Made by a program: the position numbers and the translations under genes. Positions 55,300-62,953 of a DNA stretch of 64,000 bases are shown piece after piece. The notes under the pieces are model-generated. The model did not search any database. It was not told where the DNA came from and saw nothing but the letters and a program-made list of their open reading frames with translations. Every line of letters begins with the position of its first letter. The first letter of the stretch is position 1. Origin of the DNA: an uncultured delta proteobacterium (GTDB taxonomy: Bacteria > Myxococcota_A > Polyangia > Polyangiales > Houyiibacteriaceae); assembly GCA_963712235.1 (NCBI GenBank), contig CAVQHC010000017.1, forward strand, positions 142,348 to 206,347, given 5' to 3'.

Positions 55300-55695
55300 T
55301 CAGGTGAAGATCCGAAGCGCAACGGCGATCTGAGCGCCGAAGCCGGCGAGATACGCGACGGTTCGAATTCCTGGCAGGCCGAAGGTGATCGCGGGGAAGT
55401 GAACGAGTCGTGCCCAGAAATAGACTTGGGTCGCGGCCAAGATGCCGGGCTCCTCGCCCTTGCCCATCGCGAAGGCCACGAGGACCAAGGTCGCGAAGAC
55501 GACGAGGTTCTCGACAGCGTTGTAGTGCCCGCGCTTCGCTCGACGCGCCCAAAGGGCCTGCCGGAGCTCGTCTTCGGGGTCGACTGGTTTCAAGGCTCCC
55601 AAAATGCCCAAGGACACCATGCGCTCCAAGACGTACGGAACCCAAAACAGGGCCGTCATCAGTGCCGAAGCTGCTAGCCATTCGAGTGCGCTCAT
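55300..55695 (-). CDS. MAPEG-family membrane protein (microsomal glutathione-S-transferase-like)
   Basis: 131 aa with four hydrophobic helices. The RAKRGHYNAVENLVVFA motif region is typical of MAPEG. Confidence 0.65.
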   Translation of the reverse strand: MSALEWLAASALMTALFWVPYVLERMVSLGILGALKPVDPEDELRQALWARRAKRGHYNAVENLVVFATLVLVAFAMGKGEEPGILAATQVYFWARLVHFPAITFGLPGIRTVAYLAGFGAQIAVALRIFT

Positions 55696-55774
55696 CGAAA
55701 CCTCCCGTTCAAAATGCCTGCGGCAGCGCCCACGCTATCCCAGCCGAGACCTGGGTGGCAAGGCTGCTCAGGCC

Positions 55775-57199
55775 CTAAAACGGATACGACTGCAGGGTGT
55801 CGAGGGCCATGGTCATGAGCATCTGCACCGCTTCGGGGCTGTCGAGGGGGATGCCTGCAGCGCCGCCCCCGTAGATCGCGGAGCTTTGCGGCTTGGCGTC
55901 GCGGTGCTCGTGGGCGTAGGCGACCGCCTCCGCGAGGTCCACTGCGAAGGCGTCGGCAATTCCGGTCCGTGTTTGGGGCCGGGTCACGCACATGTGAATT
56001 GCGGACGGGTGCTGCTGCCCGTTGAATCGCCAGCCACGGGTCTTCATGAAGTCGTTGACGTGGTAGATGTCGAATTCATCCGACCGAAACGAGAAGCAGA
56101 ATGTCGGTGAGCCCATCAACGCAAGCTCGGGGAAGCTCTTGACTGAGCCCTGCATCTCGAACGAGGTTTCGAAGATCTGCTTGGCGTAGCGCAGATACCC
56201 TTCTTTGCCATAGCGCACCATGGCGGCCCAGGTCGCCGCGATGAGGCCGCCGGAACGGCTGCCGGCCAGCCCATTGGACGCGTAGATACCGCCCTTCCAG
56301 CTCGGCTCGATGTAGTACTGATGCTTGCGGAAAGTCGCGTCGCGGTAGACCACGACCGAGGTGCCCTTGAGGCCGTAGCCGTACTTGTGGGTGTCGGCGG
56401 AGATCGAGGTCACGCCTGGCAAACGGAAATCAAAGGCGGGGATGTCATAGCCGAGCGCTTCGCCCCACGGCAGGATGAAACCGCCAAGACAGCCGTCGAC
56501 GTGCAGGCCGATGCCGTGCTGCACCGCCAAGTCCGAGAGTGCATCGATGGGGTCGATGGTGCCGTACGGGTAATTGCCCGCCGAGCCGACGAGGGCGATG
56601 GTCCTGTCGTCGATCTGGTCGCGCACGAAGTCCACGTCGACCAGGGTGCTGACGGGATCGGTCGGTGCGTGGACGACCTCGATCCCGAGCAGTTGCGCGC
56701 CTTTGCGGAAGGCCGGGTGAGCGGTGTCCGGGACGATGACCTTGGGACGATCGATGTCACGCTCCTCGCGAGCCTTGTCGCGGTAGATGAGCAAGGGGTT
56801 GATGATGCTCTCGGTGCCGCCAAAACCGACGGCGCCGCAAGCCTCGTGAGCGGGGTTCTGCTTTTTGACCTCGTCGCCGTGCATCAGGTCGAGGGTCATC
56901 GCGATGATGTCCGACTCGAACCGCGTCATGCTGGGGCAGATGTCGCGCTGCAGCGAGTTCACGTAAGAAAAAAGCGCGCAGACCGCGTTCAGGAAATCGT
57001 AGTGCTCGTGGTCGCCGCTGTACATCGTGCCCGAGCATCGGCCGTTTTCCCAGGCTTCGTCCTCTTTGGCCGCGACGGAGCGGAGCTCTTCGAGGATCGC
57101 CTCGGTCGAACGCCCCAACGAGGGGAAGTCGCGGATCACACCGTGGCTTTCCGCGTAGGGGTAGAGGCCTCGCATCAAGGATTCAATCGTGTCGGTCAT
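55775..57199 (-). CDS. PLP-dependent sphingosine-1-phosphate-lyase-like enzyme (group II decarboxylase fold)
   Basis: GFGGTESI and VTSISADTHKYGYGLKGTSVVVYRD...PSWKGGIYASNGLAGSRSGG parallel the eukaryotic S1P lyase active-site region (SADTHKYG..KG... GGIYASP..AGSRPG). Confidence 0.85.
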   Translation of the reverse strand: MTDTIESLMRGLYPYAESHGVIRDFPSLGRSTEAILEELRSVAAKEDEAWENGRCSGTMYSGDHEHYDFLNAVCALFSYVNSLQRDICPSMTRFESDIIAMTLDLMHGDEVKKQNPAHEACGAVGFGGTESIINPLLIYRDKAREERDIDRPKVIVPDTAHPAFRKGAQLLGIEVVHAPTDPVSTLVDVDFVRDQIDDRTIALVGSAGNYPYGTIDPIDALSDLAVQHGIGLHVDGCLGGFILPWGEALGYDIPAFDFRLPGVTSISADTHKYGYGLKGTSVVVYRDATFRKHQYYIEPSWKGGIYASNGLAGSRSGGLIAATWAAMVRYGKEGYLRYAKQIFETSFEMQGSVKSFPELALMGSPTFCFSFRSDEFDIYHVNDFMKTRGWRFNGQQHPSAIHMCVTRPQTRTGIADAFAVDLAEAVAYAHEHRDAKPQSSAIYGGGAAGIPLDSPEAVQMLMTMALDTLQSYPF

Positions 57200-58758
57200 G
57201 GCTCACTCCCAACGTTCAGCGCTCGAAACACGGAACGATTCTTCCTGAACGCGCGGACGAACTGCGCAAACATCGAATCATAGCGCGCGGCGAGCTCTGG
57301 CCGCGGCGCATAGGTCGCCGCAACCGGTACGCTCGCCTGCATCTCTTCCAGGCTGAGCTCGCCTAGATGGTGAAAGCCGAGCAGCGCAAGTCCGCGGCAT
57401 GCGGCGTACTCCGGCTCGCGGAGTTGCTCTACTGGAAGCTGGAGGATGTCGGCAAAGATCTGCGCCCAGATCGACGAGAGTGCGCCTCCGCCGTAAAACC
57501 GGATGCGCGAAATGTCCCGCTTGGCAAAGCGAGCGACCCGCCCTTGAACCCATCGGAGGTTGAAGGCCACACCCTCGAGCACCGCCCGGCCTAGATGCTC
57601 GCGTGTCGTTTGAAGGGAAAGATTCAAAAAGCCGCCGCGTACCTTGCCGTCTTCGGCGGGCGTCACCGAACCGGTCAGCCAGGGTAGAAAGAGGACGCCG
57701 CCACTGCCCGGGTCGATCGCCGCGACCGCGCGAGCCAAAACCGAGAACGGCTCGGCGAGGCTATGGTCACCGAAGTCGTCCTTCGCGAAGACGAGACGCT
57801 CGAGGAAGTAGTCCAAGGCGCCGCCACCGATTCCCGCTTCGGCCATGACGAAGTATCGGCCGGGGAACGGGGATGGCATGCTCACCAGCGAGTTCAGGGT
57901 ATCGGTTCTCTTGAAGTCGACGTGGGTGACACAGACTCCGGTCGTGCCGATCGAGATGCCGGCGTGGTCGCCGGCAAATGCCGCTGCGCCAACGCCGCCG
58001 GCCTGCGTGTCGTTGATCGAAGGAAAGACGAGCGTGTCTTCTGCAAGCCCGAGCCGTTCGGCGACCTCGGGGAGCACCGGCCCGAGCGGCTCGTCGACGG
58101 GAACGAGCTTCGGCAGCTTTCGGGGATCGAGGCCGGACCATTCGAGCAAGGTCGGGTGGTAGACCACATCGGAACGCCGGTTGTCGGTCAGCAACATCAG
58201 GAAGCTGGAGCAACGGTTGGTGACCGGCCGGCCCGATAGGCGCATCGCCACATAGTCCATGGGCTCGACGAACGTTGCCGTCCGTTCGTAGACGTCGGGG
58301 CGCGCGAGCTTGAGCCAGCGCATGTGGGCAAGGGAGTCCGCGCCCGAGTCGAGCGGAGGGATGCCGTGAATCTGCACCCAGCGCCCCATTTGATAGAGAT
58401 TCGGCTTCATGCGCTGGCCGCCCGGCAGCTTCTTCAGGCGCGCCGGCGCGCCGCGCTGATCCATCCACACGACCATGTTGGCGGTGGGACGACCGTCGCG
58501 GTCTACTGGAACGATCGAGGAGTATTGGCTCGCGCAGGCGATGCCGCGGACCTCGCGCCGGTTCGGCAGGGATGCGAGTGCCTGGTCGGCGGCATCGAGG
58601 ACGGTCTGCCAGACCTGCTCTGCATCTTGCTCGGCGCCGCCGTCTGGGGTGTGAATGGTCTCAATCGATCCGCTTCCGGTGCCGAGCAGCGTCCCGTGGC
58701 GATCGACGACGGCTGCCTTGACGTTCGAGGTGCCAAGATCGATGGCTAGAATCGGCAA
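57196..58758 (-). CDS. FGGY-family kinase (xylulokinase/glycerol-kinase-like)
   Basis: The N-terminus ILAIDLGTSNVKAAVVD plus a GGGALS region. TTG start with a GGAGGTGG RBS. The stop overlaps the lyase start (ATGA at 57196-57199). Confidence 0.85.
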   Translation of the reverse strand: MPILAIDLGTSNVKAAVVDRHGTLLGTGSGSIETIHTPDGGAEQDAEQVWQTVLDAADQALASLPNRREVRGIACASQYSSIVPVDRDGRPTANMVVWMDQRGAPARLKKLPGGQRMKPNLYQMGRWVQIHGIPPLDSGADSLAHMRWLKLARPDVYERTATFVEPMDYVAMRLSGRPVTNRCSSFLMLLTDNRRSDVVYHPTLLEWSGLDPRKLPKLVPVDEPLGPVLPEVAERLGLAEDTLVFPSINDTQAGGVGAAAFAGDHAGISIGTTGVCVTHVDFKRTDTLNSLVSMPSPFPGRYFVMAEAGIGGGALDYFLERLVFAKDDFGDHSLAEPFSVLARAVAAIDPGSGGVLFLPWLTGSVTPAEDGKVRGGFLNLSLQTTREHLGRAVLEGVAFNLRWVQGRVARFAKRDISRIRFYGGGALSSIWAQIFADILQLPVEQLREPEYAACRGLALLGFHHLGELSLEEMQASVPVAATYAPRPELAARYDSMFAQFVRAFRKNRSVFRALNVGSEP

Positions 58759-58770
58759 ACCACCTCCGGA

Positions 58771-59421
58771 CTACTGTTCGATGCAATAGAGGCCTAGCAA
58801 AGTGGAGCAGGCCGGAGTGATGTTCTCGGTCCAGGTCGACGTCGTCGAGTTGCTCGCGCCGCATAGGGCGACGACGGCCATGGAGTCCGTCGTGAAAGCT
58901 GCGCAGTCACTGCTGGGATACGAGTCGCCCGTGGCGAGGGTTCCGGTCCAAATCTCGCCGCGGCGGAACACGCCGTTCGCGTCCAGGTCGATCGGAGCGA
59001 GGATCGAGCCGTCGACGAGATCGGCCCAGTCGTCGGCCACCCTGGTCCCGTCCACGAGGACGTACGGGCCGCTGGCTTGGGTTACGCGATTCGCGACAGG
59101 CGAGGCGATCGTCGAGAGCCAGGCTTTGAACTCGCCGTCGAGACCTGCGGCCAGGGCTTGCGCCGCGCAGATCGCATCGGCGCCGGCGATGCCGCCGAGG
59201 TTCGCGCTCTGGTTGGTGTCGGTTCGAAAGATCCGCCGCTCGGCCGTGCCGGCGTCAGGGCCAGCGTCAGGGCCAGCGTCAGGGCCAGCGTCAGGGCCGG
59301 CGTCAGGGCCAGCGTCAGTGGCTGCGTCAGGCCCAGCGCCGGTGACGGCATCTGTGCCCGTACAGGCGGGGGATGCGGTCATGGCAAGGGCGAGAAGGAG
59401 GTTGAGCACGCTGCGTTTCAT
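58771..59421 (-). CDS. lipoprotein with (DAGP)n linker and endostatin-like / DUF1554-type domain
   Basis: Signal [20 protein letters not shown] (ATG 59421). [29 protein letters not shown]...SDCAAFTT...[13 protein letters not shown] aligns by eye with endostatin ([32 protein letters not shown]...SYCETWRT...SCHHAYIVLCIEN), including all four Cys. Confidence 0.6.
   Translation of the reverse strand: [216 protein letters not shown]
59249..59330. repeat. 12-bp tandem repeat (GCGTCAGGGCCR) encoding (DAGP)n on the minus strand
   Basis: Read directly: GGCGTCAGGGCCAGCGTCAGGGCCAGCGTCAGGGCCAGCGTCAGGGCCGGCGTCAGGGCCAGCGTCAG... Confidence 0.9.
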
Positions 59422-59464
59422 TCGTGTCCTTTCGCACGCTACGTGCTTCGGAACAACCACCGGC

Positions 59465-59917
59465 CTAGCCGAGCGGGTCCACTCGTAGGCGCGTGAGCTT
59501 GAGCTTGCTGATGCGCCAGCTGCCCTTCTCTTTGCGGTACTCCTCGTGGTAGTGGCCGTAGCCGCGGATGCCGCGTGAGGGTTTGAACTCGACGTAGTCT
59601 TCCATGGCCCAGACCCCTTGCGCGTCGCTTGGGCTGAGCAGCTCGATCTCGGGCATGTGGCCGTGGTGGACGGTGGTCGCTCTGCCGACGGCCTTGCGAA
59701 TGAAGTCCACGACTTCCGCCCGGCCCACAATGGTGCCACCGGGAGCGTGCTTGTCGTGCGAGACGTCGACGACGACGTCGTCGGTGAATACCTGCGAGAA
59801 CGGCAGCCACTGCTTGGTATCCATCAATCGGAAGTAGCGAGCCTTGAGCTGCTTTATCGCCTCGAGCTCCAGGAGTTGCTCGGCGGGGGAGAGAGCCAGG
59901 TTTTCTGGGTCTGACAT
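59465..59917 (-). CDS. NTF2-like / SnoaL-like superfamily protein
   Basis: 150 aa. The N-terminal helix LLELEAIKQLKARYFRLMDTKQW and overall size are typical of SnoaL_4-type proteins. Confidence 0.55.
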   Translation of the reverse strand: MSDPENLALSPAEQLLELEAIKQLKARYFRLMDTKQWLPFSQVFTDDVVVDVSHDKHAPGGTIVGRAEVVDFIRKAVGRATTVHHGHMPEIELLSPSDAQGVWAMEDYVEFKPSRGIRGYGHYHEEYRKEKGSWRISKLKLTRLRVDPLG

Positions 59918-60005
59918 AGGACGAGATTACAGCAGACGGTTGCGCTTTGGGAGCGCGGTCTCTGCTCCCGGTGCTGAGACAGAAGGTGAAGAAGCGGATT
60001 TCGGG

Positions 60006-60437
60006 CTAGTTGTCGTCTCGTCGAACGCGGGCTCGGTGTTTCTTCTTCTCACTTTGACGGCGCTTGTCTTGAAGCCGGCGACGCTTCTGGGACTTCGATG
60101 GCTTCGTCGCGACGCGACGCTTGGGAACGACGAGCGCTTTGAGAATCAATCGACGCAGGCTTGCGCGCGCCCGCTCGAGATTCTGGCGCTGCGAGCGTTC
60201 GGCCTGAGCGCTGATCAGAATTCCTCCTTCGGCGTCCAGGCGACGACCTGCAAGCTTGCGCAGGCGCCGCTTCTGAGCTTGGGTCAACGCAGCCGTTCCA
60301 TCGAGGTCAAAGCGAAGAATGACCTTCGTCGCAACCTTATTCACGTTCTGGCCGCCAGGGCCGGACGAGCGGGCAGCGTTCCACGAGAGGTCGCCGCTGG
60401 GAATGCTCAGCTGGTCATGGATCGCGAGGCCCTTCAT
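60006..60437 (-). CDS. arfB: alternative ribosome-rescue factor ArfB (peptidyl-tRNA hydrolase, GGQ)
   Basis: Contains SSGPGGQNVNKVATKV, followed by a Lys/Arg-rich C-terminal tail (KRRRLQDKRRQSEKKKHRARVRRDDN). Confidence 0.85.
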   Translation of the reverse strand: MKGLAIHDQLSIPSGDLSWNAARSSGPGGQNVNKVATKVILRFDLDGTAALTQAQKRRLRKLAGRRLDAEGGILISAQAERSQRQNLERARASLRRLILKALVVPKRRVATKPSKSQKRRRLQDKRRQSEKKKHRARVRRDDN

Positions 60438-60467
60438 GCTTGCCCCGCTCGATATGCCTCGCCGTGC

Positions 60468-61607
60468 TCAGGGTCGCCAGCTCAGGGCGATCTGGTTTGG
60501 GACCTGCGCGAGGGTGTTGTAGGCGTCTCGGTAGAGCTTCAGGTCGCGCGCCGGCGAGGACCTGTGCATTGATTTGCAAGGCCAAACCCGGGCGGGGTCG
60601 CGCGCGAGCGATGCCCCGGGTGTCGCGACCCAAACTAGGGTGCCGCGTAGGTGTACAGTCGCCGTCGTGCCCGGGGGCCTGAGCTCGAGCCAGAGGGTGG
60701 CGTTCTTTGGCGGCGGGTCGAGCGTTCGCACATAGATCCCGGTCTGGCTCATGTTGTAGGTCAGGCCGTACTCGGGGGAGAACTCACCCTCCGTTCGAAA
60801 GCTGCAGATCGTATCGAACAAGTATCGGGGCGACTGCCGTCCCTGACGGCAACCGTCTCTCAGCAAGTCGTTTGCCAAAAAGAGCAGGTGGTCGTGAGGG
60901 GCGTTTTCCGAGATGGTGGCCGAGTGCGGGAACTCGGCGTCCAGCATGATTCGAGTCGACGCCGTCGCTGAGACAACGACAAAACGCGTCTTCGGCGCAC
61001 TGGCCGCCCGCCTGGCTTCTTCAATCTTAGTCACAGGCAGGAGCTGGTCGGACACGACGACCAGATCTGGCTCCAGCTCCGATGCCATGGCGGCTATGAT
61101 TTCGTTCGCATCGACCGCAAAGTGCACATCGAAGCAGGCCTGGCGAAGCACGCGTCCGAGAAGCCGTCGATATTCGTCGACGTGATGACTGATCACAACA
61201 CGACCTCGGGAGACCGGTGGACGCGCAGTCGGATCAAAATTTTGAAGGTTCGCGATGCGGCGGGTGACGCCCCCAACGTTCGAACGCAGGATCACATCGT
61301 CCGCTCCCTTTCGGTACGCTTGCACGAAGGAGGCATCGCGGAGGTCCGTGACCATCGCGATCACCGGTGTCGGAAACAGGAAAGGATCCTCGCGAATCCA
61401 GGTCGTCGTCGTCTCGAGCTCCCCGGTCTCACCATCGACGAAAATACACTTCGGACGCAGCTCGGAAATATCGTCTTGCGAACCTACGATGGTCCTCGAC
61501 ACGTAGGAACCGGAGTTCGCTCGCTCGACGGCCCTTCGAAGCATGGCGCCCTGCGCGCGATCGAACGTTCCGATCAAAGCAGGGCTTCCGAAGTCTCGCG
61601 CTTCCAT
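60468..61607 (-). CDS. PilZ-domain protein with two degenerate receiver-like N-terminal domains
   Basis: The C-terminal PilZ motifs are RQSPR (RxxxR) and NMSQTG ((D/N)xSxxG), within ...ICSFRTEGEFSPEYGLTYNMSQTGIYVRT. The upstream flavodoxin-like segments lack clear phospho-acceptor motifs. Confidence 0.55.
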   Translation of the reverse strand: MEARDFGSPALIGTFDRAQGAMLRRAVERANSGSYVSRTIVGSQDDISELRPKCIFVDGETGELETTTTWIREDPFLFPTPVIAMVTDLRDASFVQAYRKGADDVILRSNVGGVTRRIANLQNFDPTARPPVSRGRVVISHHVDEYRRLLGRVLRQACFDVHFAVDANEIIAAMASELEPDLVVVSDQLLPVTKIEEARRAASAPKTRFVVVSATASTRIMLDAEFPHSATISENAPHDHLLFLANDLLRDGCRQGRQSPRYLFDTICSFRTEGEFSPEYGLTYNMSQTGIYVRTLDPPPKNATLWLELRPPGTTATVHLRGTLVWVATPGASLARDPARVWPCKSMHRSSPARDLKLYRDAYNTLAQVPNQIALSWRP

Positions 61608-61913
61608 ACCCCCAGACTAACGGAGCCGTCGCCCCCCCTCCAAACGGACGCCAGAAGGCAGGGGCCCGTCCTTCGGAGACAAGATCCGGCCAGCAACGCT
61701 TTGGTCGATTTTCGGACCTAAAACGACCGAAGCGGCGGGACGGGCCTGGTGCGGTGGAAAGCGTGGCCGAGGGCGAGGTCGCCGCGCAGATCGGACGTCT
61801 GGGGGCATTCTTGCCGCGCGGAGCTTTTCTGCATTGACCGGGTAAACGTCGACGTTTCATTCTGCGCGTCGCTTCGGTCGTTGAGCGGGTTGGAGCCCTG
61901 GAAGGAGACGAGG

Positions 61914-62357
61914 ATGCAGACGACAGAGCTCACGATGACGCTCGACGGGACGACATTCCGCGGGCGCGTCCGTCGCTCGACGAACGAGACAAGCTCTCAG
62001 CGCGGCTCGGAAATCCGACCGCGAGAGCGACGCGCCTTCGACGCGAAAGTCGCGCAGAGCATTTTCGTCCACAAGCTTTGTGGGCCCGAAGCGTTTAAGT
62101 TCTGCAGGCTCTTCTGCGCGATGAGCGTCGAGACCATCGCCGGCCTACTTCAAGTCGACCCGAGCACCGTGCAACGGTGGGAGAACCAGGAGAGCGAGAC
62201 CCCCGCGTGGGCGATGCTGTTGGTGTCGAAGATCGGGGAAGAGAGCTCCAGGGGGCGCACCTCGACGCATACCTGGCTCCGGCAGCTCGCGGACGACACG
62301 GGGAGGCCGACGGAGATCGACGTCGATTCCTTGCGATCAGCGACGCTCGAGCGATAG
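61914..62357 (+). CDS. hypothetical protein with XRE-like helix-turn-helix
   Basis: ATG at 61914 preceded by GAAGGAGACGAGG. The HTH-like segment is MSVETIAGLLQVDPSTVQRWENQE. Confidence 0.35.
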   Translation: MQTTELTMTLDGTTFRGRVRRSTNETSSQRGSEIRPRERRAFDAKVAQSIFVHKLCGPEAFKFCRLFCAMSVETIAGLLQVDPSTVQRWENQESETPAWAMLLVSKIGEESSRGRTSTHTWLRQLADDTGRPTEIDVDSLRSATLER

Positions 62358-62456: not shown

Positions 62457-62953
62457 ATGTTCAACCCGAAAAGAATCATTCCGAACTTGGCCGTGGCGGC
62501 CTTGGCCCTGACCGGTTGCGGCGAAACAGACAGCCTGGACGGGTTCGGTCTACTGGCGGGACTGGCGGCACTGCGGGGACCGGGGGCACTGCAGGGACCG
62601 GCGGAACTGTGGGGACCGGCGGAACTGTGGGGACCGGCGGGACGGGTGGCTCGAACGGTACAGGCGGAACGAGCGGAACCGGGGGCACGAATGGGACGAC
62701 CCTGGCCAGCTCGCTGCAAGCATTTTGCATGAAACTGATCGAGTGTTTTCCCGGCTACTACGACAACACCGAAGACTGCGTCAGCTACCTGACCACGGCC
62801 TATTACTTAGACGGACCCATCAGCAGCGAATGCGAAGCCGCGGCCATCAGCTACTTCCAATGCGGCGCGCCGCTGACCTGTCAGGAGCTCGCAAACCCCG
62901 AAGGAAACAGCTGCGACGACGAGTTCAACGCCGCAGCCCAGGCGTGCAGCTAG
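62457..62953 (+). CDS. lipoprotein with Gly/Thr-rich linker and Cys-rich C-terminal domain, with an apparent frameshift near 62520-62550
   Basis: The signal plus lipobox MFNPKRIIPNLAVAALALTGC is in frame 0 (ORF 62457..). GGTGGTAGTGG...SSLQAFCMKLIECFPGYYDNTEDCVSYL...NSCDDEFNAAAQACS is in the -1 frame (ORF 62516..62953), which has no signal peptide of its own. Confidence 0.45.

What the first reader, a model, noticed from the sequence alone, without database searches (positions are those of the whole stretch)
58771..59421. A bacterial lipoprotein with an endostatin-like (collagen XV/XVIII C-terminal, DUF1554-type) domain
After the signal, lipobox and a (DAGP)n linker, the ~170-aa domain aligns by eye with human endostatin along its length. 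[31 protein letters not shown] aligns with [41 protein letters not shown] aligns with SYCETWRT. It ends [13 protein letters not shown] against SCHHAYIVLCIEN, so all four Cys of the two endostatin disulfides are in register. It is the first gene upstream of the FGGY/lyase pair, 12 nt from it on the same strand.
Basis: partly seen in the sequence, partly recalled or inferred. Interest (0 to 1): 0.55.

Follow-up and report, generated by a model that had tools for sequence, protein, structure and literature searches.

The report
Myxobacterial lipoprotein with endostatin-fold domain
This gene encodes a small exported, probably lipid-anchored bacterial protein whose folded part is a true relative of animal endostatin, but the domain is already catalogued and very common in bacteria, so the find is correct and fairly ordinary.

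Summary
Window 58771..59421 (minus strand) encodes a 216-aa protein: a signal peptide ending in Cys20, a (DAGP)n-type acidic linker, and a ~157-aa domain.

Evidence that the domain is endostatin-like:
- It passes Pfam's Endostatin threshold over the whole model (35.1 bits against 29.4).
- A family profile finds only endostatins in the PDB (E=1.5e-12).
- The AlphaFold model's top five PDB matches are all endostatins (TM 0.73).
- All four endostatin cysteines are in register.

It is not special. The domain occurs in more than 17,000 50%-identity clusters, often as up to 13 tandem copies in giant proteins. These overlap Pfam DUF1554, the family of the Leptospira Len endostatin-like lipoproteins described in 2007.

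It lacks endostatin's functional marks. It has no histidine, the zinc ligand Asp76 is Gly here, and its pI is 4.1 against 9.3.

The 12-nt link to the FGGY kinase and PLP-enzyme genes is real. It is kept only among close relatives and lost at 63% identity or below, so it reads as inherited synteny.

The most likely role is a tethered, disulfide-stabilised envelope or surface binding module (inferred).

One unexplained detail is a fifth cysteine (C187) that is invariant in this clade only.

Verdict: a new member of a known kind, of low to moderate interest.

The parts
58771..59421 (-). Whole gene, 216 codons plus TAG stop. Order: signal peptide, linker, endostatin-fold domain.
   Evidence: The ATG start is supported by homolog N-termini and by AAGGA 6 nt upstream (read).
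59362..59421 (-). Signal peptide with lipobox-like end ([20 protein letters not shown]20). The putative lipidated Cys20 is at 59362-59364.
   Evidence: Sequence. An N-terminal Cys is present in 98 of 101 full-length homologs, and 74 of 101 pass a PROSITE-type lipobox rule. This copy fails it only because of Pro at -2.
59245..59361 (-). Acidic low-complexity tether, residues 21-59 ([19 protein letters not shown](DAGP)n...). It is encoded partly by a 12-nt tandem repeat at 59248-59338.
   Evidence: period 12, 7.6 copies. pLDDT is below 50 for residues 5-57. The Cys-to-domain distance among homologs is 8 to 183 aa, median 46.
58774..59244 (-). Endostatin/DUF1554-fold domain, residues 60-216. The Pfam Endostatin match covers residues 68-215 (58777-59220). 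It ends in CIEQ.
59167..59169 (-). Cys85, equivalent to endostatin Cys33. Expected partner is Cys213.
   Evidence: Cys in 99% of 446 domain copies.
58903..58905 (-). Cys173, equivalent to endostatin Cys135. Expected partner is Cys205.
   Evidence: 97% conserved.
58861..58863 (-). Cys187, a fifth Cys with no endostatin equivalent and no identified partner. It is specific to this clade.
   Evidence: Invariant in 30 of 30 close homologs. Present in only 18 of 446 domain copies family-wide.
58807..58809 (-). Cys205, equivalent to endostatin Cys165.
   Evidence: 95% conserved.
58783..58785 (-). Cys213, equivalent to endostatin Cys173, in the C-terminal CIEQ motif.
   Evidence: 96% conserved. CVEQ is the conserved end of the Leptospira Len motif (PMC2063517).
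58759..58770 (-). 12-nt intergenic spacer, TCCGGAGGTGGT. It holds a GGAGG ribosome-binding site for the TTG start of the FGGY kinase gene.
   Evidence: Read. It leaves no room for a promoter or terminator, so co-transcription is likely (inference).
57196..58758 (-). Downstream neighbour: FGGY-family sugar kinase, subtype unassigned. This is context, not shown to be a functional partner.
   Evidence: Adjacent only in close relatives.
55775..57199 (-). Next downstream neighbour: group II PLP-dependent decarboxylase/lyase-type enzyme. It overlaps the FGGY stop by 4 nt. Context only.
59465..59917 (-). Upstream neighbour: SnoaL_4-domain protein, 43 nt upstream on the same strand. Context only.
   Evidence: Syntenic in the same close relatives.

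Best explanation
The gene encodes an exported protein of a Polyangiales-type myxobacterium. It is most likely lipid-anchored at Cys20 after signal-peptide cleavage. A flexible, acidic (DAGP)n tether of about 40 residues holds a compact domain of about 157 residues away from the membrane.

That domain is a true homolog of the endostatin domain of animal collagens XV/XVIII, which is a C-type-lectin-like fold. It belongs to the very large bacterial Endostatin/DUF1554 superfamily. It is expected to be locked by the same two nested disulfides as endostatin (C85-C213 and C173-C205).

It has no catalytic signature. It lacks endostatin's zinc site and its basic heparin-binding surface. It therefore most likely acts as a non-enzymatic binding module at the cell envelope or surface, in adhesion or ligand capture, as the Leptospira Len proteins do. 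Its ligand is unknown and is probably not polyanionic.

Shown here: homology, fold, cysteine register, family size, and absence of the zinc and heparin determinants. Inferred: lipidation, disulfide pairing, localisation, and the binding function.
For: Homology and fold:
- Pfam Endostatin scores 35.1 bits against a gathering score of 29.4, over profile positions 7-166 of 170.
- All 30 aligned homologs hit both Endostatin and DUF1554.
- The family profile hits only endostatins in the PDB: 1koe at 1.5e-12, 1bnl at 7.7e-10, collagen XV 1dy2 at 3.7e-8.
- The AF2 domain blocks are mostly pLDDT 81-96 outside residues 170-200.
- Foldseek's top five are endostatins, E=1.5e-9, TM 0.73, rmsd 3.0. A second model reproduces this.
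- The four endostatin Cys are 95-99% conserved over 446 domain copies.

Export and anchoring:
- The N-terminus has a charged region (K2, R3) followed by a hydrophobic stretch.
- 98 of 101 homologs have an N-terminal Cys, and 74 of 101 pass a lipobox rule. The commonest box is LLAC. The +2 residue is never Lys.

Tether: the N-terminus is predicted disordered and the linker length varies among homologs.

Binding-module role:
- The same domain is strung in up to 13 copies in proteins of 1,000-3,000 aa, together with Cys-rich repeats (DUF4215, Dicty_CTDC). This is typical of extracellular adhesin-like proteins.
- The Leptospira Len lipoproteins of the same superfamily bind laminin, fibronectin and factor H (PMC2063517; PMC2387172).
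- The protein diverges faster than its neighbours in the same loci: 65-87% identity against 84-98% for the kinase and PLP enzyme. This pattern fits an exposed protein.
Against: - The lipobox of this copy (S-P-A-C) has Pro at -2 and fails the PROSITE-type rule. Cleavage by signal peptidase I and release as a soluble periplasmic or secreted protein cannot be excluded.
- No ligand, localisation or expression data exist for any myxobacterial member. None was found in the paper library.
- The model is weakest (pLDDT 50-58) across residues 170-200, which holds C173 and the extra C187. The disulfide map is therefore assumed from endostatin.
- The fifth invariant Cys has no role in this explanation.
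- Len-type host-matrix binding cannot be transferred directly to a free-living myxobacterium, and NCBIfam Len models score far below their cut-offs.
Confidence: 0.65

Rival explanations
1. The lipoprotein is a functional part of an operon with the FGGY kinase and the PLP-dependent enzyme. For example, it might capture or present the substrate that these enzymes metabolise.
For: - Same strand, with a 12-nt gap holding only a ribosome-binding site, so co-transcription is likely.
- The same order, with a 12-15 nt gap, occurs in L004, L005, L006, L010, L012, L013, L014 and L020.
Against: - In those loci the kinase and PLP enzyme are 84-98% identical to the window's, and ArfB, SnoaL_4 and the PilZ-like gene are syntenic too. 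They are close relatives, not independent observations.
- In L007, and apparently L011 and L015, about 550 nt separate the genes. In L007 this gap holds an opposite-strand glyoxalase gene.
- In L021 (70% identity) no kinase lies within 6 kb.
- In L029 the pair is 3.6 kb away on the other strand.
- At 63% identity or below the neighbours are unrelated (HXXSHH/PSD proteins, sulfate transporter, glycosyltransferase).
- The kinase and PLP enzyme are cytoplasmic and the lipoprotein is exported.
Confidence: 0.1
2. It is a soluble periplasmic or secreted protein cleaved by signal peptidase I (after A-S-P-A), not a lipoprotein.
For: - Pro at -2 breaks the PROSITE-type lipobox rule in this copy. APAC occurs in five homologs and LPAC in one.
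- S-P-A before Cys20 fits the small-x-small rule for signal peptidase I (established knowledge).
Against: - The Cys directly after the hydrophobic segment is kept in 98 of 101 homologs.
- Most homologs carry canonical boxes (LLAC in 30, plus SLAC, ALAC, LVAC and others). Conservation of that Cys has no reason under signal peptidase I cleavage.
- A long disordered tether after the Cys is a typical lipoprotein build.
Confidence: 0.2
3. The resemblance to endostatin is chance or convergence in a Cys-containing, low-complexity protein, or a recent acquisition from an animal.
For: - Pairwise identity to endostatin is only 21-24%.
- The top raw phmmer hits in the PDB were circumsporozoite repeats, caused by the DAGP linker.
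Against: - The circumsporozoite hits have no valid aligned domain.
- With the linker removed, only endostatins are hit, end to end, at 1e-12.
- The fold search is independent of sequence and agrees.
- More than 17,000 bacterial and metagenomic 50%-identity clusters carry the domain, across Myxococcota, Binatia, Acidobacteriota, Nitrospirales, Gammaproteobacteria and Spirochaetes. This rules out a recent transfer from animals into this genome.
Confidence: 0.01

Closest known systems
Endostatin domain of collagens XVIII and XV (Pfam PF06482; PDB 1koe, 1bnl, 1dy0-2)
   Same: - Same fold (TM 0.73).
- Full-length profile match.
- The same four Cys positions.
- Shared signature: G-x-x-GAD-x-x-C ... 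GL-x-G-x-F-x-A-[WF]-LS ... R ... VW-[TH]-G-[TS] ... G ... C-x-x-[WF] ... C ... C-IE.
   Different: - It is not at the end of a collagen. It is a stand-alone bacterial domain on a period-4 (DAGP)n tether, not Gly-X-Y.
- It starts after endostatin's N-terminal zinc-binding His1, His3 and His11. It contains no His at all, and Asp76 corresponds to Gly125 (ligand identities from my own knowledge of 1bnl).
- It is acidic (pI 4.1; 8 K+R) whereas endostatin is basic (pI 9.3; 20 K+R), so the Arg-based heparin site is absent.
- Several loops are shorter (157 against 183 aa).
- It has an extra Cys187.
Leptospira interrogans Len proteins (LenA-F), the endostatin-like outer-membrane lipoproteins (Stevenson et al. 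2007, PMC2063517); Pfam DUF1554 (PF07588)
   Same: - Bacterial lipoprotein build with one or two endostatin-like motifs ending in C-[VI]-E-Q (CIEQ here).
- Same Pfam superfamily: DUF1554 E=6.4e-6 and a weak LenA/B hit at E=3.8e-4.
- PMC2387172 ties DUF1554 to the 1koe fold.
   Different: - It is not an ortholog. NCBIfam LenA/B scores 19.9 bits against a cut-off of 300, and LenF scores 13.4 against 400.
- The DUF1554 model matches only the N-terminal half and falls 1 bit below threshold.
- The host is a free-living, environmental myxobacterium rather than a mammalian pathogen, so the Len ligands (laminin, fibronectin, factor H) are not expected.
Multi-copy DUF1554/Endostatin giant proteins of Myxococcota and other phyla (for example P0121, 2,442 aa with 12 copies)
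   Same: The same domain with the same four Cys. These are the top hits of the family profile, with E down to 1e-135.
   Different: Those are arrays of 2-13 copies with other Cys-rich repeats. This is a single copy on a lipid tether, and it belongs to the minority clade with a fifth Cys (18 of 446 copies).

Membership tests
Pfam Endostatin (PF06482) / endostatin fold | Score above the curated gathering threshold over the whole domain | tested here: met
   35.1 bits against 29.4, residues 68-215 on profile positions 7-166 of 170. 30 of 30 homologs match.
Pfam Endostatin (PF06482) / endostatin fold | Three-dimensional fold superposes on solved endostatin | tested here: met
   AF2 model against the PDB: the top five are all endostatins, E=1.5e-9, TM 0.73 (target-normalised), rmsd 3.0. 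Repeated with a second model. This rests on a predicted model, not an experimental structure.
Pfam Endostatin (PF06482) / endostatin fold | Four Cys in the positions of the two nested disulfides (Cys33-Cys173, Cys135-Cys165) | tested here: met
   C85, C173, C205 and C213 align to the four endostatin Cys and are 95-99% conserved. Actual bonding is not testable here.
Endostatin as a functional entity (collagen XVIII fragment) | N-terminal zinc site (His1, His3, His11, Asp76) | tested here: not met
   The domain has no His, the aligned region starts after residue 19 of endostatin, and Asp76 aligns with Gly125.
Endostatin as a functional entity (collagen XVIII fragment) | Basic, Arg-rich heparin/heparan-sulfate binding surface | tested here: not met
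   pI 4.1 with 18 D+E and 8 K+R, against pI 9.3 with 20 K+R for human endostatin.
Endostatin as a functional entity (collagen XVIII fragment) | C-terminal part of a collagen NC1 domain, released by proteolysis of a hinge | tested here: not met
   It is a stand-alone 216-aa bacterial protein. The linker has a period of 4 residues (DAGP), not Gly-X-Y.
Pfam DUF1554 (PF07588) | Score above the curated gathering threshold | tested here: inconclusive
   26.5 bits against 27.5, covering only profile positions 3-69 of 136. All 30 homologs hit it at E<=1e-3. Multi-copy relatives hit it strongly, for example 122 bits.
Leptospira Len family (LenA/B, LenF; NCBIfam NF047482, NF047483) | Equivalog model score above cut-off | tested here: not met
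   19.9 bits against 300, and 13.4 against 400.
Leptospira Len family | Binding of host laminin, fibronectin and factor H | not testable with these tools
   This is a biochemical property (PMC2063517).
Bacterial lipoprotein (signal peptidase II substrate) | Positive n-region, hydrophobic h-region, then a lipobox [LVI][ASTVI][GAS]C or the PROSITE PS51257-type pattern | tested here: inconclusive
   The n- and h-regions are present ([16 protein letters not shown]). The box S-P-A-C fails both regular expressions because of Pro at -2. 74 of 101 homologs pass the PROSITE-type rule and 98 of 101 keep the Cys. No dedicated predictor such as LipoP or SignalP was available.

The most novel reading that the evidence does not exclude
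The evidence does not exclude two linked ideas.

First, the clade-specific, invariant, unpaired Cys187 may make this single-domain lipoprotein a covalent device. It could form a disulfide-linked dimer or become attached to another envelope or matrix component.

Second, the animal endostatin domain may have been recruited into collagens XV/XVIII from this much larger and more diverse bacterial superfamily. On that reading, a hallmark animal matrix and angiogenesis module would be bacterial in origin.

Neither idea was tested here beyond showing how conserved the Cys is and how large the bacterial family is.
Probability: 0.12. Interest if true: 0.55.

Novelty: new member of a known kind. Interest (0 to 1): 0.25.

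Why it matters
The gene adds one more uncharacterised member to a catalogued domain superfamily (Pfam Endostatin/DUF1554). Its only studied bacterial representatives are the Leptospira Len adhesins.

Three points have some modest value:
- A family profile finds no solved structure of any bacterial member. The PDB holds only the animal endostatins.
- The family is very large in environmental bacteria, with more than 17,000 clusters at 50% identity, and its function there is unknown.
- The myxobacterial single-domain clade is small, easy to express, and carries an unexplained invariant fifth cysteine.

It opens no long-standing question, and the metabolic neighbours are probably coincidental.

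Tried and rejected
1. Raw phmmer against the PDB put circumsporozoite proteins first. I rejected these as low-complexity artefacts of the DAGP linker, because no valid aligned domain was reported. Removing the linker left only endostatins.
2. I tested a functional link to the FGGY/PLP pair on 9 looked-up contigs and 80 genome loci. Adjacency tracks overall relatedness and disappears at 63% identity or below, so I rejected it as evidence of function.
3. I looked for further copies of the domain in the window with the family HMM against all six-frame ORFs. There are none besides this gene.
4. A second AF2 run on the domain alone, with 22 sequences, was worse (mean pLDDT 64.4). It still hit endostatin first.
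6. The promoter and terminator scan of 55400-62200 found no promoter-like site. Terminator-like sites were no more frequent than in shuffles (8 against 4.9 +/- 2.3), so the transcription unit is unresolved.
7. Literature searches for endostatin with myxobacterial names found nothing relevant.
8. Model coordinates are not exposed, so I could not measure Cys-Cys distances or the surroundings of C187.

Full report
**What is there**

The minus strand of window 58771..59421 holds a 216-codon gene. The mechanical ORF list extends it to a GTG at 59739. That extension overlaps the upstream SnoaL_4 gene. It is also not supported by homologs, which start MKRS... or MNRIS... at the position of the ATG at 59421. 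An AAGGA lies 6 nt upstream of this ATG.

The product reads [20 protein letters not shown]20, followed by [19 protein letters not shown](DAGP)n...GTA. A domain of about 157 residues ending in ...LYCIEQ follows.

The linker is encoded by a 12-nt tandem repeat: 7.6 copies, 87% matches, at 59248-59338. AlphaFold predicts it to be disordered, with pLDDT below 50 for residues 5-57.

**Is the endostatin resemblance real?**

Yes, by four independent routes.

1. Pfam Endostatin (PF06482) scores 35.1 bits, above the curated 29.4. The match covers residues 68-215 on profile positions 7-166 of 170. DUF1554 (PF07588) scores 26.5 bits, 1 bit below its threshold, and only over the N-terminal half.
2. The single sequence finds mouse endostatin 1koe at E=1.2e-5, end to end. 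The higher-ranked circumsporozoite entries in that search have no valid aligned domain and are artefacts of the DAGP repeat.
3. A profile of 22 linker-free homologous domains (A2) finds only four distinct PDB sequences, all endostatins:
   - 1koe at 1.5e-12
   - 1dy0 at 2e-12
   - human 1bnl at 7.7e-10
   - collagen XV 1dy2 at 3.7e-8
4. An AlphaFold2 model has domain blocks mostly at pLDDT 81-96 and is weak over residues 170-200. Searched against the PDB with Foldseek, it gives endostatins as its top five. The best hit has E=1.5e-9, target-normalised TM 0.73, rmsd 3.0 Å and 24% identity. The next hits are non-significant. A second, poorer model of the domain alone again ranks the five endostatins first, followed by a long tail of non-significant C-type lectin-like domains. 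This fits endostatin's known place in that superfold.

**Cysteines**

The four endostatin Cys align with C85, C173, C205 and C213. I extracted 446 domain copies from 149 family representatives. In these, the four positions are Cys in 99, 97, 95 and 96% of copies, and 366 of the 446 copies have exactly four Cys.

C187, just before a Gly that is 90% conserved, is invariant in all 30 close homologs. It occurs in only 18 of the 446 copies family-wide, mostly in short proteins that carry one copy. After lipidation of C20, the mature protein would have an odd number of Cys. No partner is evident. The model is least confident in exactly this region.

**How common is it?**

It is very common. The linker-free profile finds 17,352 clusters (50% identity) at E<=1e-3 and 12,285 at E<=1e-10. 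The best-scoring hits are proteins of 1,000-3,000 aa with up to 13 copies. Pfam calls these DUF1554 plus Endostatin, sometimes with DUF4215 or Dicty_CTDC Cys-rich repeats.

The word-indexed search found 162 close relatives. The named ones come from Myxococcales or Polyangiales metagenome-assembled genomes (MAGs) and are labelled 'hypothetical'. Most of the listed ones carry precomputed PF06482 or PF07588 hits.

A scan of one genome per species found 192 loci. Most are from Myxococcota (Polyangiales, Sandaracinaceae, Nannocystaceae including cultured Nannocystis and Paraliomyxa). Others come from Binatia, Acidobacteriota, Nitrospirales, Gammaproteobacteria, Spirochaetaceae and a few further MAGs. 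The best match is 87% identical over the domain, from a Myxococcales MAG, so the window's own genome is not in that set.

**What it lacks compared with endostatin**

- The aligned region begins after endostatin residue 19, so the N-terminal His1, His3 and His11 zinc ligands have no counterpart.
- The domain has no histidine at all.
- The fourth zinc ligand, Asp76, aligns with Gly125, which is Gly in 79% of bacterial copies.
- The domain is acidic (pI 4.1; 18 D+E, 8 K+R), whereas human endostatin is basic (pI 9.3; 20 K+R). The Arg-rich heparin site is therefore absent.

The identities of the zinc and heparin residues come from my own knowledge of the endostatin literature. It agrees with the 1bnl alignment printed.

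**Export and anchoring**

The N-terminus has a charged n-region and a hydrophobic h-region, followed by S-P-A-C20. Among 101 full-length homologs:
- 98 keep a Cys at this place.
- 74 satisfy a PROSITE-type lipobox rule.
- The commonest box is LLAC (30 homologs).

This copy fails the rule only because of Pro at -2, as do six homologs: five with APAC and one with LPAC. The +2 residue is S, T, G or A, and never Lys. From my own knowledge, Lys at +2 is the inner-membrane retention signal reported for Myxococcus.

I therefore regard lipidation as likely (about 0.75) but not shown. Cleavage by signal peptidase I remains a live alternative.

**Neighbourhood**

The stop codon is followed by 12 nt (TCCGGAGGTGGT), then the TTG start of a 520-aa FGGY-family kinase. 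That gene overlaps by 4 nt a 474-aa group II PLP-dependent decarboxylase/lyase-type enzyme. Upstream on the same strand lie a SnoaL_4 protein (43 nt away), ArfB, and a protein with a weak match to a PilZ-related family. The spacer contains only a GGAGG ribosome-binding site, so co-transcription is plausible.

The arrangement recurs with the kinase gene directly downstream in L004, L005, L006, L010, L012, L013, L014 and L020. In those loci, however, the kinase and PLP enzyme are 84-98% identical to the window's, and the wider neighbourhood is syntenic as well. These are close relatives, not independent evidence.

With more divergence the link breaks:
- In L007, L011 and L015 there is a gap of about 550 nt. 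In L007 it holds an opposite-strand glyoxalase gene.
- In L021 (70% identity) there is no kinase within 6 kb.
- In L029 (60% identity) the pair lies 3.6 kb away on the other strand.
- In homologs at 63% identity or below the neighbours are unrelated.

I read this as decaying synteny. In the same loci the lipoprotein is consistently less conserved than its neighbours (65-87% against 84-98%), as exposed proteins often are.

**Most likely mechanism**

The protein is probably a lipid-tethered, disulfide-stabilised binding module of the C-type-lectin-like class. A flexible acidic spacer would hold it off the membrane. It would act in adhesion or ligand capture at the envelope or surface.

The support is indirect:
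- There is no catalytic signature.
- The same module is used in multi-copy, adhesin-like giant proteins.
- The only studied bacterial relatives, the Leptospira Len lipoproteins, bind matrix proteins and complement regulators. Their Len motif ends in CVEQ, as this domain ends in CIEQ (PMC2063517; PMC2387172).

The ligand is unknown. Given the negative charge, it is unlikely to be heparin-like.

**Comparison and novelty**

The protein is a member of Pfam Endostatin by the curated test, and it belongs to the Endostatin/DUF1554 superfamily. It is not a Len ortholog: the NCBIfam equivalog models score 13-20 bits against cut-offs of 300-400. It is not a functional endostatin either, because the zinc, heparin and collagen-context features all fail.

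Bacterial lipoproteins with endostatin-like domains have been described since 2007. I found no paper on myxobacterial members. A family profile finds no solved structure of a bacterial member.

The finding is correct, but it is a new member of a known kind. The only unexplained feature is the clade-specific fifth cysteine. Interest: 0.25.

Noticed in passing
window 62457..62953 (+): A second lipoprotein-like gene appears to be split by a frameshift. ATG at 62457 opens a signal peptide with a canonical lipobox (MFNPKRIIPNLAVAALALTGC). The (GGT)n linker and a Cys-rich C-terminal domain continue in another frame (ORF 62516..62953). There is no Pfam hit for the C-terminal part. It has the same signal, low-complexity linker and Cys-rich domain build as the gene studied.
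   Followed up: partly
window 58861..58863 (-), residue C187: A fifth cysteine is invariant in 30 of 30 close homologs but present in only 18 of 446 domain copies of the wider family. It has no identifiable partner and lies in the least confident part of the model.
   Followed up: partly
window 55775..58758 (-), and loci L004-L007, L010-L015, L018, L020, L029: The FGGY-family kinase and the group II PLP decarboxylase/lyase-type enzyme are a tightly coupled pair with a 4-nt overlap. They are very conserved (84-98% identity) across Polyangiales-type MAGs and stay together even where the lipoprotein is elsewhere (L029). Both score below every NCBIfam equivalog cut-off, so the substrate is unassigned. 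In related loci the nearby genes are often lipid-related: WS_DGAT, LCAT, MAPEG, Exo_endo_phos.
   Followed up: partly
P0106 (345 aa, homolog from a 276-kb contig), alignment A1 columns 1-200: One homolog carries a long N-terminal Cys-rich extension with a GGTGGTAGTGG stretch ahead of the endostatin-fold domain. It is reminiscent of the Cys-rich ORF at window 62516..62953.
   Followed up: no
L060 (Aenigmatarchaeota MAG) and L077 (Paceibacter, CPR MAG): Domain homologs at 37% identity sit on contigs binned to a DPANN archaeon and a CPR bacterium. This could reflect real spread or mis-binning.
   Followed up: no
window 59248..59338 and homologs in alignment A1: The linker repeat varies greatly in copy number and composition among close homologs ([12 protein letters not shown], GGTG types; 8 to 183 aa between the Cys and the domain). 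This suggests rapid repeat expansion and contraction.
   Followed up: partly
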